DNA of 64,000 bases from Isurus oxyrinchus (taxonomy: Eukaryota). The notes under the pieces are model-generated. The model made no database searches. It was given only the letters and a program-made list of their open reading frames with translations, and was not told the DNA's origin. Positions within the stretch are counted from its first letter, which is position 1. Each line of letters starts with the position of its first letter. Below, piece by piece: positions 4,333-61,412 of this stretch. The stretch covers positions 163,246,001 through 163,310,000 of the forward strand of contig JANJGN010000009.1 in assembly GCA_026770705.1 (NCBI GenBank), read 5' to 3'. Made by a program: the position numbers and the translations under genes.

Positions 4333-4497
4333 TATTACTGGCTTCTTGTCCCAACAACAGCTTGTATTTCACCCCTTTCCTATTTTTACTTAGTTCTGTT
4401 GAAGGGTCATGAGGACTCGAAACGTCAACTGTGCTCTCCTCCGCCGATGTTGCCAGACCTGCTGAGTTTTTCCAGGTATTTCTGTTTCTGTTTTTGT
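4333..4497 (+). mobile_element. Short PLE 3'-terminal insertion carrying a hammerhead motif
   Basis: 13-bp TSD tgtagagctgtgc (4320-4332, 4498-4510); sequence matches the 3' end of the PLE at 19061-20969. Confidence 0.85.
4392..4430 (+). ncRNA. Minimal type I hammerhead ribozyme motif (variant core CUGUUGA)
   Basis: AGTT-CTGTTGA-A-GGGTC atgag GACTC-GAAACGTC-AACT. Confidence 0.7.
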
Positions 4498-4731
4498 TGT
4501 AGAGCTGTGCCGTCTATTGGAAAGAGATTTGCAGCTAAGGAGTGACAGCAATGGTCAGCTGTCAGCTTCATTCTTAACGCAGATGAAGGATGGAGTTTTC
4601 TGGGACCTGGTTTGCTGCGATCTTCTAGTTGATTTAAATTCTTCATCTGAGTTTTATTGGATAAACCTTTCAATGTGACAACTAAGAGCTGGGTGACAGA
4701 CGACAAGTATTGATCAATCCTTTTTGAGAAT

Positions 4732-4774
4732 ATGACAATGTGGATTCTGATTCCTTTTATTTGTTCTGTGCCTG
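4732..4774 (+). CDS. CD300/pIgR/MDIR-like receptor exon 1, signal peptide (MTMWILIPFICSVP)
   Basis: ATG, hydrophobic leader, phase-1 donor G|gtgagt; joins in frame to the V exon as ...SVP-VSGVLW. Confidence 0.85.
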
Positions 4775-5160
4775 GTGAGTAACAGTCAGAGCTGGTTATT
4801 CAGATAATCAGTGTTAGATTAACTCTAGTGTACACTTTATACAGTAGAGAAGTTTAAATACTTGGAGACATGTAAAGGTACAAAATACTCAGCAAAAATA
4901 TATAAATGACTGTTTTATGAAGTCTTGTACCTATTTTGTTCATTCTTTTGCACCGCAGAAATATTTATCAATGTACAGTAAACTATTATTAATGGTGAAT
5001 ACAAAATAAATAACTTATTTAATTTTTTAACAGTTACATGAATGACAGAATGAAATGCAAAAGTAACACATTTTAATCCAGTAAATTTAACTTTTTTATT
5101 TCATGTGATGTCCAACATAGATACTGGAAACTATGGGGTTTGGTTAGCTCAGTTATTGTG

Positions 5161-5220
5161 ATATTTATTAACATGTCCCATCTTGTGTGACATTGTCACA
5201 TGAGGGGGACATGTTAATAA
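5161..5220. repeat. Isolated 60-bp palindromic segment, inverted copy of 5934-5993
   Basis: 56/60 identity to the reverse complement of 5934-5993; self-complementary. Confidence 0.8.
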
Positions 5221-5289
5221 TTGTGTGTGATGCTGAATGATGCTAATGGCCTGGGTTCAATCCTGGTAATTCAATCATCTCTGATTCTT

Positions 5290-57241: not shown

Positions 57242-58310
57242 GGGGCAGAATTCTACGTCTCGTGGGCGGGCACACACCCAACACAAATGGATGTGAAATA
57301 TTGTTAGATGATGTCGGGCGAGCGTCCCAACAATTAACTTCATCAGGGTCCCTTCCCTCTCCATGACTGGCTGACCAAGGTGGATGGCAGCTCTCCAGCT
57401 CCAAGGCGCCCATCTCATACCTCATCAGAATGAGGAGGTTTTGGGGGGATGGTGGGGCCTCCGTCTGGTCTGAGCTCTTCCATTGGTGTTATGGCTTCTC
57501 TTCTCCTGAAATGACAGAGAAGCATTGATTTGTCCACTCTGTACCCACAGCGCCACTGCAGCCTGGCCAACCCCACCCCCCTCCCCGGGGCACCTTGCAG
57601 AGCACATCCAAGTCGTGGCCCTCGAACCGCAAGGCACTCAGGCCAAGTAGCCAGGGCTCACCCCCTTAACCAGCGCCGGTGGCAATGACAGTTGGCACTC
57701 AGACTCTAACACCCCTGAGGCCCACAGGGTGACGACCAGCCCTTAACACTTCTCCACACTGATCCACGCCAATTCAGTACTCACCCTTGCTGAGCGCAGC
57801 AGATCGCTGAACCTTTTGCGGCACGGCACCCATGGTGTGCCACAGAACATTGTGGCCGCTGACCTCGGCTGCCACCTCCATCCTAGGCTATTTTGGTCAG
57901 GTGCAGTCACCTCCTCCCACTGTCCCTGTGTACTAGAGCGTCCCACCCTCCTCCACAAGGACCGCGAGGCACTCACCTGAGAAACGGGGGCCCGAGTGCC
58001 CACCCGACTTGCCCTCCCGCCTGACGTCTCCAGCCGCCAGTGAGCCCATCGTTTGAATGAAATGGTTTCCTGGGCAGACTCCATAGATTCTCTCCTGGCA
58101 GCCTTCAGGGAGCTGCTTCTGCCGGCCGGGTCGCCACTGGATCTTTGGCAGTTCGGCGGGCGTGCAGCCGACTCTGGGAGCGCGCCCGCCGAACTGAAAA
58201 TCGAAATGACGCGCGGTGACGTCGGGACGCACGCCCGACATCACCGCTCGTCATTTTACACGTCGGGGAGCGGGACCCGCTCCCCACACGCTGACCCGAA
58301 GATTCTGGCC
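57242..58310 (-). mobile_element. Internally deleted Harbinger derivative with the Myb/SANT N-terminal exon
   Basis: Termini ggggcagaattc / gaagattctggcc; minus-strand WVPCRKRFSDLLRSAR|gtgagt. Confidence 0.7.
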
Positions 58311-59733
58311 TCATTTGTTTAGGAGTGAATTCAGGAACCTTTCTTTCTCTCGCACGGAATCTGGAAGTGATTCATCCTAAAGGCTGTCGATGCTGAGCCA
58401 GTTAAGGTTTTCACAGCGGAGATCACAGGGGTACTGGGTAAGCATATCTAAAGAAATGGGTTAGTGACTGGGAAAAAAAGCGAGATGACGCGCAATGACA
58501 TCGGGAGGCACGCCCGACATCACCGCGCACCATTTTACACATCAGCGTATCGGGCCCACCCCCCACAAGCCGACCGGAAGATTCAGCCCATTATTTATCT
58601 GTGAGAAATGGTGTTCTATGTATTCAACGGGAACACAAGTGACACCTTACCCCGGCACACACCGCAACGGGCGATAATGGGAGAGGAGAGCAGTGTGATC
58701 GCGGCACTGCCCCAGTTCATCACCAGCTTTGCCTCAATTTGTCGCCGTTTCCAGAATTCTGTTCGGAGCTGACGCGTAACATAACACATGGTTCTCAGGC
58801 TCAATCAATCTGATGTCTTAAATATTTTCTTTTCCAGTTACTCAATGAATCAGATTCTCACAGCTTAACCCAAGTGGGAAAATGAAGATTCCAGATGTTA
58901 CATCCACATTGATGGACTTTTGCATCCTGATGAAATATTCATTCTGTATCCAGATTTGAACATTTATTTTAACAATTTTACATAATAAAATGGATTTTGT
59001 CATTAAATTATTTTGACCGTTATATTAGTGGAGGAATCAAAAACCAAAACAATGGCTGTGACATTCAAATTGTACACCTACCTCTTGACAATAATTTATC
59101 TATCTGTTGACTTAATGTCTACACAACTGGACTTCTTGCTTCATACTTTTTTGTCATAATATGTGTCAATTTTAAGGCTATCAATATTATAAACAATATT
59201 CTGCAATAAATAGGCAACTTGAATGGTTCATTCACTGGAAATCAGTTGCTCCAGTAACACATTCCACTTTTACATGGGATAGAACAATGTACCTTTATGA
59301 CAGTAGAATGAGAGACACACTTGTATAATTAAAAAGTGTTTAACTTCAGAAATCTGATGTCATCTTCATGTTATGATGTTATGATTTTTATTCTTATTTT
59401 AGCAAATACAATCTACACTTGTGAGGAATTCCCTGATTCCTAATGACCACAAGCGCAGTTTCAAGCACGAAGCCTGATTCCCTGTTTGACCACCTCCTCT
59501 CTTGCCCCCTCCATTGCCTCTGTGCTGTCAGACTGCCTGTCCAGCTGTTTGTCCAACAGCCAGTCCCAGATTACAACTGAACATTGTGAAGACTGAAGCC
59601 ACTGTCTTTGTCCCCAACTCAATCCCCTTTCCTTTGCCCCTAGCTCCATCCACCTCACTGTCCAGTGAAGTCCTCATCTCCACATTCAATTAATCTAATG
59701 CCCTCCTAGCTGGTCTTGCATCTTCCACCCTAT

Positions 59734-60261
59734 GGAGAGAGTTTTCTCCCTGTCGGGGGTGGGGGTTGGACAGGAGTGGAAATGAGCAGGCGTGTAGACG
59801 ATCGCTGCCCGTGATCGGTTGCATGTGCCGAAAGAGCACAGAAATCTCCCTGAGGCAGCTTTGCTATTTGAACATTTTAATCAAGCAAACAATTTTTTAA
59901 GACATGTGCCCTCATGTGACAGTGTCACATGAGCTGGGACATGTCAATGAATTTTATTAAAAATTCTTATTAATCTTTAAAAACCTTCATGAAACCTCAT
60001 CTCGCCCGTGGCTCTTTGCCTTCCCGCCAACCTAAAGGTTAGATGGGCAACTCAGTTAATTAGCTTAATTGATGTTTAAGTGGCCTTAAGAGGCTTTTGA
60101 CTGTTCGGCGGGCGCGTAGCTGATTCTGGTGCGCGCCCACTGAACTCAAGATCTGACTGACATGCTGGGACTTCGGGATCCACTGCCTGACATCACCGCA
60201 CGTCATTTTACCCGTCAGAGAGCAGGCCCCGCCCCCACTTGCCGATCCGAAAATTCTGGCC
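59734..60261. mobile_element. PIF/Harbinger-type MITE
   Basis: Inverted relative of 2939-3639; ends aaattctggcc; inserted in an older LINE-like fragment. Confidence 0.7.
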
Positions 60262-61269
60262 TACATCAACTTATGCTCACCCAAATCTCTGCTCTGAGTT
60301 TTAATATGTGAAAGGCTGTACATAAATGCAAGATCTTGTAGCCAAGCCCACTAACAAGGCAAAAAAATAATAAATGAACACGCTTTTCAACTCACTATAT
60401 TGTCAATGAGAGGGCTATTCCTTTAGATTTGTAAGAATGAAGTCTTTATCCATACATAACAGATTGCTTCTAGAGGTCTAACTTTCTTACTGGTCTCAGT
60501 GGTTGAATAATTTTTGTCGTGTATAGGATGCTGCACGTAGATGGTCTCCTCTAAATGAACATAAATTCAGTTTAAGCACGATCCATTAACTCCTCAAAGG
60601 AGTCCATGGTTGATGACCAATGTAAACAAAGAGTTGAGTTCTGAAAAAAATGTTTTCAAACTTGTTTGCCTGTTCCTTGTGGTTTGACACCATGAGAAAA
60701 ATGTGTTGCTATTCTTCTGGTTGATGTGTGACAAGAAACATTTGGGCGTACAATGGCAGTGGGTGTTAGTTACTAAATGAAGAGATGCATTTGTAAATGG
60801 GAGAAGAACTGTTACAGGGCTTGTTATAGGCAAACATCATGGGCACTGATCCATTTACTGGGCTCCATGTGATGCGGATGGAAGAAACCGTGAACTGGTG
60901 TAGCAGGGGGTCATACGGGCCACGCCAAGAGCAAATTTTCCCAGCAGGAGGTGTTATTGAGCTGGATGTAATTTTATGAATCATAACGAGAAGGAGAGGC
61001 TAAAGCTGAGTGAAAACTTATGGATTGATCTACATGGGAGATTCCCAAACGATCTGAAGAAACAGTCATCAGTTAAATTGTGCTGTGAAATGGAGTTACT
61101 GTTCCTACAGCTCTGAACATTTATACAGCTTCCAGGAATTGGGTGGCAGATACCTCAGGACTCAATGCAATTGTCATCAACAGTTGCGCCAGGGACATTA
61201 CAGAAATCTCTCAAAGGCCTGCACGTGGATGAATAACATTCATTAATACTAAACAGAACCAGCAACCAA

Positions 61270-61412
61270 AACCACAAGCAAAATACTGCAGATGGTGGAA
61301 ATCTGAAACAAAAACAGAAAATGCTGGTAAAACTCAGCATGTCTAACAGCATCTGTGAAAAGAAAAACAGAGTTAATGTCTCGAGTCCGAATGACTCTTC
61401 TCCAGAGCTTCT
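61270..61412 (-). mobile_element. Old PLE 3' end with a degenerate hammerhead (61371-61409)
   Basis: Reverse complement AGCT-CTGGAGA-A-GAGTC attcg GACTC-GAGACATT-AACT plus the family tail. Confidence 0.7.

What the first reader, a model, noticed from the sequence alone, without database searches (positions are those of the whole stretch)
4392..61409. Twelve minimal hammerhead-ribozyme motifs dispersed by a shark Penelope-like family
Seen: a 38-39-nt motif with stem I AGTT/AACT, core CTGNNGA, an extra A, stem II GRGTC/GACTC, GAAA, a near-absent palindromic stem III (ACGT) and a GUC/GUU/AUU site. Copies start at 4392+, 20871+, 23793-, 26165-, 26256+, 31061-, 33189-, 33286+, 42515+, 49891+, 55377+ and 61371-. 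The stem II loop varies (atgag, atacg, atctg, attcg) while the stem is mostly kept. Established: PLE terminal repeats carry minimal type I hammerheads that are thought to cleave as dimers. Inference: about half of the insertions here consist of little more than the hammerhead plus the 3' tail and retain TSDs, suggesting a very abundant ribozyme-bounded mini-retroposon or a strong truncation hotspot at the ribozyme.
Basis: partly seen in the sequence, partly recalled or inferred. Interest (0 to 1): 0.7.

Follow-up and report, generated by a model that had tools for sequence, protein, structure and literature searches.

The report
Hammerhead ends of Penelope-like retrotransposons
These are the ribozyme-shaped tail ends of broken copies of an ordinary kind of jumping gene in a shark-or-ray genome, a known arrangement, and the copies were evidently made from RNA that the ribozyme had not cut.

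Summary
The 12 motifs are real and at the stated places. They are the minimal type I hammerheads in the pseudo-LTR of a Neptune/Nematis-type Penelope-like element (PLE). An RT plus GIY-YIG frame lies upstream of one; its closest named relatives are from sharks and rays. The 12 motifs belong to 10 insertions; three are head-to-head inverted pairs. Six are under 260 bp, and four of those have exact 13-15 bp target-site duplications.

The 'ribozyme-bounded mini-retroposon' is not supported. None of 13 mapped 5' ends lies at the cleavage site; 8 lie 1-59 nt upstream of the intact motif. Short copies belong to the same subfamilies as long ones. No pair covaries on both sides, the conserved A6 is changed in 10 of 12, and no copy is fully canonical, though core and stems are more conserved than loops.

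This is known PLE anatomy in a new host family. What remains open is the 5'-end cluster just upstream of the motif, and A6U fixed in the youngest subfamily.

The parts
1..1300 (-). U0: PLE ORF fragment, 98.5% identical to U2; its 3' end and hammerhead lie beyond the window's left edge
4333..4497 (+). U1: 165-bp PLE 3' end without tail; hammerhead 4392-4430; exact 13-bp TSD 4320-4332 / 4498-4510; 5' end at -59
19061..20969 (+). U2: 1.9-kb 5'-truncated PLE (ORF, 3' UTR, hammerhead 20871-20909), no tail; exact 14-bp TSD 19047-19060 / 20970-20983
19063..20478 (+). Open 471-aa frame: RT C-terminal part, C-x4-C-x2-C linker at residue 337, GIY-YIG endonuclease; the C-terminal half of a 890-950-aa PLE protein
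23693..23834 (-). U3: 142-bp solo end with tail; hammerhead 23793-23831; 5' end at -3; no TSD found
26063..26309 (.). U4: head-to-head inverted pair. Minus arm with tail (hammerhead 26165-26203, 5' end -23) and plus arm ending at about +54 (hammerhead 26256-26294, 5' end -30). Exact 15-bp TSD 26048-26062 / 26309-26323, first base shared with the element
31018..31186 (.). U5: inverted pair. Minus arm -1 to +82 (hammerhead 31061-31098) and plus arm +45 to tail without hammerhead. Exact 14-bp TSD 31004-31017 / 31187-31200
33095..33347 (.). U6: inverted pair. Minus arm with tail (hammerhead 33189-33227, 5' end -25) and plus arm to about +63 (hammerhead 33286-33324, 5' end -29/-30). Exact 14-bp TSD 33081-33094 / 33347-33360
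41682..42616 (+). U7: 935-bp older PLE copy (endonuclease region, 3' UTR, hammerhead 42515-42553), no tail; 12-bp TSD with 1 mismatch 41670-41681 / 42617-42628
49469..50030 (+). U8: 3' UTR, hammerhead 49891-49929 and tail; 5' end at -391, preceded by about 30 nt of its own UTR inverted; no TSD found
54778..55481 (+). U9: 704-bp young copy (ORF end, 3' UTR, hammerhead 55377-55415), no tail; no TSD found
61273..61413 (-). U10: old 141-bp solo end with tail; hammerhead 61371-61409; 5' end at about -1; tentative 13-bp TSD with 2 mismatches

Best explanation
The motifs are the standard minimal hammerhead in the pseudo-LTR of a Neptune/Nematis-type PLE, scattered as truncated insertions of at least three or four subfamilies of different age.

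Shown from the sequence: a 12-15 bp duplicated target; 3' ends at two U-rich stretches about 35-40 nt apart (about +99 to +106 without tail, +134 to +143 with tail); inverted pairs with the tail on one arm only; 5' ends that keep the whole hammerhead.

Inferred, by analogy to the anole Poseidon element in vitro: the RT-endonuclease nicks both strands about 14 nt apart, and each 3' end primes reverse transcription inside the RNA downstream of the hammerhead. One cDNA gives a solo end; two cDNAs joined head-to-head give the inverted pairs. The template was uncut RNA, so cleavage does not set the ends.

Inferred, weaker: short arms stop at -1 to -30 because that is the transcript's 5' end (a TATA-like block lies at -32 to -26) or an AT-rich site where two cDNAs join.

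The motif was kept by selection in the master elements. The dispersed copies are decaying passengers, probably inactive or nearly so as ribozymes.
For: RT and GIY-YIG in one frame ending 392 nt upstream of the 20871 motif. Four of 10 motif-bearing insertions run on into 3' UTR or ORF. Exact TSDs of 13-15 bp in 5 of 10; a match of 13 or more arose in 1 of 1000 random window pairs. None of 13 arms begins at +36; the nearest is +45. Short copies nest with long ones. Pairwise divergence among 6 chosen arms: core without A6 5/165 (3%), stems 18/270 (7%), loops 43/105 (41%), downstream 13-29%, the CpG 13/30. The same anatomy is published: solo motifs from truncated PLEs and dual motifs 100-700 bp apart on opposite strands (PMC4209133); inverted pLTR, 31-bp tail, TATA plus initiator, TSDs and solo pLTRs (PMC3846280); both strands cut and extended, two internal RT starts defining the tail, uncut RNA the main substrate (PMC11167929).
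Against: No full-length or tandem copy lies in the window, so the link between pLTR, start site and ORF start is not seen; the pLTR translations did not match N-termini of full-length relatives (best E 0.28). Three of 10 insertions have no TSD and one is tentative. The 5' cluster is significant under some nulls only (p 0.0002-0.37). The non-tail arms of the inverted pairs end at +54, +63 and +82, not at one fixed site. The TATA-like block is no better conserved than several other UTR blocks (13/20 against up to 14/20). The priming mechanism comes from a different PLE clade, whose start sites are AC-rich, not U-rich.
Confidence: 0.8

Rival explanations
1. A dedicated non-autonomous mini-retroposon (SINE-like or retrozyme-like) made of hammerhead plus tail is amplified in trans by the PLE protein.
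For: Six of 10 insertions are under 260 bp, and no arm has a length between 166 and 530 nt. The two complete inverted pairs have similar junctions (-23/-30 and -25/-30). PLE-derived non-autonomous elements are published (bioRxiv 10.64898/2026.07.22.740005; PMC8557442 passage on Chlamys).
Against: 5' ends differ (-59, -30, -30, -25, -23, -3, -1, -1, +45). U3 is 99.1% identical to long U9 and U6 96.8% to long U8, so short copies do not form their own clade. No head-to-tail array contains the motif.
Confidence: 0.1
2. Ribozyme cleavage sets the 5' end of the RNA that is copied (ribozyme-bounded insertions).
For: One arm (U5 plus) starts at +45, 9 nt downstream of the predicted cut. Core and stems are conserved across subfamilies.
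Against: None of 13 arms starts at +36, and 12 of 13 keep the complete motif upstream of the cut. A6 is changed in 10 of 12; an A6C variant has low activity (PMC3088659). In the anole element catalytic mutants still insert, and no reads start or end at the cut (PMC11167929).
Confidence: 0.05
3. There is no hotspot: ordinary, strongly short-biased 5' truncation plus a small sample produces the apparent cluster.
For: With one arm per insertion the cluster is not significant under a steep power-law length model (p 0.17-0.37) or a short exponential (p 0.05-0.11). Heavy 5' truncation is usual for PLEs (PMC8557442).
Against: Under exponential (observed mean) and log-uniform models p is 0.0002-0.005. 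Arms with 3' ends from +54 to +142 still stop in the same 60 nt, and only 1 of 13 stops downstream of the motif.
Confidence: 0.3
4. The 5' stop reflects splicing: a branch-point-like block, pyrimidine tract and AG end at +2 in the older subfamilies, as the intron of Drosophila virilis Penelope ends at helix I, and RT halts at a branch or the copy continues in a short upstream exon.
For: No AG between -33 and the motif; the last 20 nt are 85-95% pyrimidine in U7 and U8. The intron end maps to the 5' end of helix I in D. virilis (PMC4209133).
Against: The whole UTR is 71-74% pyrimidine and poor in AG; the young subfamily has only 60% pyrimidine there; no conserved donor was found upstream.
Confidence: 0.1

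Closest known systems
Minimal type I hammerheads of metazoan PLE pseudo-LTRs (Cervera and De la Pena 2014, PMC4209133)
   Same: Short helix I, unpaired base between positions 9 and 10.1, G10.1-C11.1, palindromic 15.2-16.2 without a loop; mostly solo motifs of truncated PLEs; dual motifs on opposite strands; reported for fish Neptune, Poseidon and Xena elements.
   Different: Helix II is 5 bp here (7-8 bp in the schistosome examples); A6 is U in most copies; no shark example in the parts and the supplement file that I could see.
Neptune (and Nematis) clade EN+ PLEs (PMC8557442)
   Same: One frame with RT then GIY-YIG, CX2-5CxxC linker, pLTR with hammerhead, inverted 5' copies, 30-40 bp tail at one end.
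   Different: No full-length or tandem copy in the window; clade placement by tree not done.
Anolis Poseidon PAc (Frangieh et al. 2024, PMC11167929)
   Same: Two 3' end positions separated by the tail, downstream of the hammerhead; copies made from uncut RNA; mostly AT-rich targets.
   Different: Other clade; its starts lie in an AC-rich stem-loop inside the ORF, here in U-rich stretches with no shown ORF; its C3 and G8 were shown to be needed for cleavage, nothing is tested here.
Non-LTR retrozymes (PMC7229834; bioRxiv 10.64898/2026.07.22.740005)
   Same: Type I hammerhead, short non-coding units, kinship with PLE pLTRs.
   Different: Retrozymes are head-to-tail tandem repeats, in PMC7229834 with canonical hammerheads; these are solo or head-to-head units with TSDs that grade into ORF-bearing copies.

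Membership tests
EN+ Penelope-like element | Single frame with RT and C-terminal GIY-YIG endonuclease | tested here: met
   RVT_1 E 5e-7 (above cut-off) and GIY-YIG E 4e-4 (21 bits, just below the 22.6 cut-off) in 19063-20475; 50-54% identical to full-length proteins with both domains
EN+ Penelope-like element | Inverted terminal copies and a 30-40 bp tail on one end | tested here: met
   Three inverted pairs with the tail on one arm; two 3' end classes 35-40 nt apart
EN+ Penelope-like element | Target-site duplication | tested here: met
   Exact 13-15 bp in 5 of 10, 12 bp with 1 mismatch in 1, tentative in 1, none in 3
EN+ Penelope-like element | Partial tandem pLTR-ORF-pLTR of an active copy | tested here: inconclusive
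   Every copy in the window is 5'-truncated; the longest covers the C-terminal half of the protein
Neptune/Nematis clade | CX2-5CxxC motif in the RT-endonuclease linker | tested here: met
   At residue 337 of the frame; in 103 of the 107 homologs (of 120) that had the endonuclease anchor motif; feature per PMC8557442
Neptune/Nematis clade | RT phylogeny with named reference elements | not testable with these tools
   No Repbase or Dfam reference set is held
PLE minimal type I hammerhead | Core C3-U4-G5-A6-N7-G8-A9 and G12-A13-A14-A15.1 | tested here: inconclusive
   C3, U4, G5, G8, A9 in 12 of 12; GAAA in 11 of 12; A6 in only 2 of 12
PLE minimal type I hammerhead | Extra base after A9 and G10.1-C11.1 pair | tested here: met
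   Extra A in 12 of 12; G-C in 10, G-U in 1, unpaired in 1
PLE minimal type I hammerhead | Palindrome at 15.2-16.2 allowing a dimer helix III | tested here: met
   ACGT in 7 of 12 (duplex -3.1 to -3.5 kcal/mol); decayed in 5 (+0.8 to +2.8)
PLE minimal type I hammerhead | Compensatory covariation in helices | tested here: not met
   0 of 10 pairs change on both sides in 11 distinct rows; one consistent G-U/A-U change; 95.5% of cells paired. Few, related rows give little power
PLE minimal type I hammerhead | Self-cleavage as dimer or with protein help | not testable with these tools
   Needs an assay
Rfam hammerhead families | Score at or above gathering threshold | tested here: not met
   No hammerhead family among 0 gathering matches or 11 matches at E up to 10
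Non-LTR retrozyme | Head-to-tail tandem units each with a hammerhead | tested here: not met
   None of 14 tandem-repeat rows covers a motif; same-strand motifs are 2.1-28 kb apart
Non-autonomous mini-element (SINE-like) | Fixed 5' end and a lineage apart from autonomous copies | tested here: not met
   Variable 5' ends; short copies nest with long ones

The most novel reading that the evidence does not exclude
The short copies are not random truncations but complete cDNAs of the 5' pseudo-LTR of a tandem master: internal priming just downstream of the first hammerhead runs off the transcript's start, which lies at or just before stem I. That would turn every active PLE into a factory of solo pLTRs that map its start site. 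In addition the youngest lineage, which has an open frame and copies 98-99% alike, spread with A6U fixed in the core, so the hammerhead fold may now serve as a structural or protein-binding signal and no longer as a cutter.
Probability: 0.25. Interest if true: 0.55.

Novelty: new member of a known kind. Interest (0 to 1): 0.27.

Why it matters
As an annotation it is ordinary: PLE hammerheads occur by the thousand in fish, coelacanth and frog genomes (PMC4209133), and PLE expansion is noted for the whale shark (10.1101/443036). What the role of these hammerheads is remains open, and this family offers a cheap test. PLE pieces fill 10.5% of the called bases here, so a genome would give very many 5' and 3' junctions to set against the cut site, plus a natural pair of cores (A6 and U6) in close subfamilies. 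If the novel reading holds, it would explain why solo hammerhead ends are so common in animal genomes and would show selection for the fold without cleavage.

Tried and rejected
Rfam: no hammerhead family; the miRNA-family matches at 26171-26288, 31019-31133 and 33207-33305 are below gathering score and only reflect the inverted pairs.

More copies for covariation: a 24-nt downstream motif gave 0 matches in genome contigs, as expected for a prokaryote collection. The viral and metagenome collections stayed unchecked, and no eukaryote genome collection is held, so the genome-wide histogram was not run.

ORF start inside the pLTR, as in the anole element: three-frame translations of 6 arms did not match a profile of N-termini of long relatives (best E 0.28); the young subfamily has a stop in the frame of the ATG near +55. 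Unresolved.

Distant TSD partners for U3, U8 and U9 within 8 kb: none outside PLE sequence.

Monomer folding as evidence: 4 of 5 motifs fold no better than shuffles (z -0.55 to +0.15; one at -2.0), and in 135-142 nt context the full hammerhead fold is not the minimum in any of 4.

Classical twin priming on one RNA as in LINE-1 (recalled): rejected for U4-U6 because the two arms overlap in sequence. Simple fold-back of the tail-primed cDNA: rejected because the unpaired junction bases belong to the non-tail arm.

Cis dimers from the inverted pairs: rejected, the two motifs are on opposite strands and would form a long hairpin.

A first count of the linker motif (120 of 120) was dropped as uninformative, because the pattern also matches the endonuclease's own cysteines; it was redone with position.

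The paper on dimer cleavage of PLE hammerhead variants (Lunse et al. 2017, recalled) is not held.
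Full report
Numbering. Position +1 is the first base of stem I; the predicted cut lies between +35 and +36. U0-U10 are the PLE insertions listed under parts.

Observation. All 12 motifs are at the stated places and align without difficulty, 84% mean column identity. A fixed pattern finds 10 of them against none in 100 shuffles. A model built from the 12 recovers them at 62.5-76.7 bits and nothing else above 15.2 bits, so the list is complete for this window. Rfam has no hammerhead match at gathering level or at E up to 10.

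What carries the motif. A 471-aa open frame at 19063-20478 has RT and GIY-YIG matches and ends 392 nt upstream of the motif at 20871. Its best named relatives are predicted proteins of Rhincodon (68%), Hypanus (66%), Mobula (65%), Stegostoma (63%) and Chiloscyllium (60%); named invertebrate hits among the 120 listed of 696 reach 49-53%. A shark or ray host is therefore likely; shark against ray is not decided. Full-length relatives are about 890-950 aa, and the frame covers their C-terminal half. A C-x4-C-x2-C motif sits in the linker at residue 337, the mark of the Neptune and Nematis clades (PMC8557442, passages). A second ORF copy, 98.5% identical, runs off the left edge. Three further motif-bearing copies extend 391, 599 and 832 nt upstream into the same UTR or ORF.

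Insertion anatomy. The 12 motifs make 10 insertions. U4 and U6 are head-to-head pairs, U5 a pair whose second arm begins at +45. Exact TSDs flank U1 (13 bp), U2 (14), U4 (15), U5 (14) and U6 (14); U7 has 12 bp with one mismatch, U10 13 bp with two (tentative), and U3, U8, U9 none. In 1000 random window pairs a match of 13 or more arose once and of 10 or more ten times. 3' ends fall at about +99 to +106 without tail (U1, U2, U7, U9) or +134 to +143 with tail (U3, U4 minus, U5 plus, U6 minus, U8, U10), both in U-rich stretches; the non-tail arms of the pairs end earlier, at +54, +63 and +82. In each of the three pairs the tail arm reaches less far 5' than its partner. The stretch from about +50 to +122 is predicted to fold back on itself in all 6 tail-bearing arms; no shuffle control supports this. 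All of this matches published PLE structure: inverted 5'-truncated copies and a 30-40 bp tail at one end (PMC8557442); inverted pLTR, 31-bp tail, TATA and initiator, TSDs of 8-10 bp and solo pLTRs in a rotifer (PMC3846280, passages).

Is it bounded by the ribozyme? The 5' ends of 13 arms are -1801, -832, -599, -391, -59, -30, -30, -25, -23, -3, -1, -1 and +45. Left out: U0 (3' end outside the window), the few A residues at the 5' side of U2 and the 30-nt inverted piece at U8. None lies at +36; eight lie 36-94 nt upstream of it and keep the whole motif. A copy that holds the intact motif cannot come from a cut template at that site. This agrees with the anole element, where catalytic mutants insert normally, uncut RNA is the main substrate and no reads end at the cut (PMC11167929, parts 1-2 of 4 read). 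The cluster itself is suggestive. Seven of 13 ends fall in 30 nt (p 0.0002 exponential with the observed mean, 0.006 short exponential, 0.0002 log-uniform, 0.027 steep power law). With one arm per insertion, 5 of 10 fall in 30 nt (p 0.003, 0.054, 0.005, 0.17), and with a 60-nt window the power-law p rises to 0.21-0.37. These nulls are my own choice.

Is it a separate mini-element? No sign of it. U3 is 99.1% identical to the long U9, U6 96.8% to the long U8, and in the tree short and long copies mix within a young group (U2, U3, U4, U5, U9), a second group (U6, U8) and older singles (U1, U7, U10). No tandem array covers a motif, so these are not non-LTR retrozymes in the sense of PMC7229834 (passages) or bioRxiv 10.64898/2026.07.22.740005 (parts 1 and 3 of 5 and passages). 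That preprint found retrozymes in its one chondrichthyan and cleavage in 1 of 9 frog dimers; its supplements are closed and may name shark PLE families.

Is the ribozyme intact? C3, U4, G5, G8, A9 and the extra A are invariant; GAAA holds in 11 of 12; 95.5% of pair cells are paired, with one G-U/A-U alternation and no change on both sides. Among 6 arms chosen to span the subfamilies, the core without A6 differs at 3% of pairwise sites, stems at 7%, loops at 41% and downstream sequence at 13-29%: the pattern expected from selection on the fold in master elements. But A6 is U in 9, G in 1 and A in 2 copies, and those two have lost the CpG of the palindrome, so 0 of 12 copies are fully canonical. 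A natural A6C variant cleaves at under 0.1 per minute (PMC3088659, passages); I found no data on A6U. Minimal PLE hammerheads showed no cleavage as monomers and little as dimers (PMC4209133, parts 1-2 of 4 read). Same-strand motifs here are 2.1-28 kb apart and the dimer helix is worth about -3 kcal/mol, so cleavage of these genomic copies is unlikely (inference).

How it most likely works. A dimeric RT-endonuclease cuts both strands about 14 nt apart; each 3' end primes reverse transcription at one of two U-rich sites downstream of the hammerhead on uncut RNA; one cDNA gives a solo end, two joined head-to-head give a pair with the tail on one side. The TSDs and end positions are shown; the chemistry is borrowed from PMC11167929. 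Why short arms stop at -1 to -30 is open. A TATA-like block at -32 to -26 is shared by all 5 copies that reach it in the UTR alignment and would place a start near -3 to +1, where three arms end; the pair junctions lie in the block itself. If the master is a pLTR-ORF-pLTR tandem, priming in the first pLTR would give short start-bounded copies and priming in the second would give long ragged ones, which fits nine arms of 83-165 nt, four of 531-1900 nt and none between. The block is not more conserved than other UTR blocks, and the Drosophila element has an internal TATA-less promoter (PMC2377424, passages), so this stays a hypothesis. An acceptor-like reading of the same stretch is listed as a rival.

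Novelty. Searches for Penelope with hammerhead, with shark, with Neptune, with dimer and with SINE listed no paper on shark PLE hammerheads. The library is partial, Repbase and Dfam are not held, and supplement file 1 of PMC4209133 could not be searched (file 2 had no shark entry). PLEs are reported as expanded in whale shark introns (10.1101/443036, passages) and present in all vertebrate lineages (PMC4350176, passages). The supplements of PMC11167929 held as text had none of my terms.

Verdict. A real, well-read observation of a known feature in a probably undescribed host family: new member of a known kind, interest 0.27.

Noticed in passing
window 8699-9040 and 18593-18919, + strand: Two immunoglobulin V-set exons, 50% identical in protein; the first is closest to pIgR and CD300/CMRF35 domains among solved structures. 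Insertion U2 sits about 140 bp downstream of the second exon on the same strand, where the likeness between the two flanks ends. The second lacks a cysteine pair that the first has and may be a diverged or dead copy.
   Followed up: partly
window 20857-20866, 55363-55372 and the matching places in U4: The young subfamily has a 10-nt direct copy of the stem II 3' strand plus GAAA just upstream of the motif, replacing the pyrimidine tract of older subfamilies; it could pair with the stem II 5' strand and offer an alternative fold.
   Followed up: no
offset +83 to +91 in most arms, e.g. window 20953-20961: A splice-donor-like site downstream of the motif in the young and second subfamilies, absent in the two oldest copies; sense insertions in introns could be spliced in.
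   Followed up: no
window 49469-49498: About 30 nt of U8's own 3' UTR inverted at its 5' junction (90% identical), probably the stump of an inverted arm.
   Followed up: partly
window 47530-48339, + strand: DDE_Tnp_4 (Harbinger-like, name recalled) transposase fragment, E 1e-25.
   Followed up: no
window 14838-15293 (-), 28230-29342 (-), 50294-50857 (+): LINE endonuclease and RT fragments; related repeats recur at 11604-14645, 16371-17831, 32732-35560 and 56528-57234.
   Followed up: no
window 45012-46968: Four assembly gaps (1686 N in all) inside a GT-rich repeat; they could hide further PLE pieces.
   Followed up: no
window 26048-26062, 19047-19060, 31004-31017, 33081-33094: The four longest TSDs are 71-86% AT, and three begin with AT, AAT or ATT, recalling the ATT preference of the anole endonuclease (PMC11167929).
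   Followed up: partly
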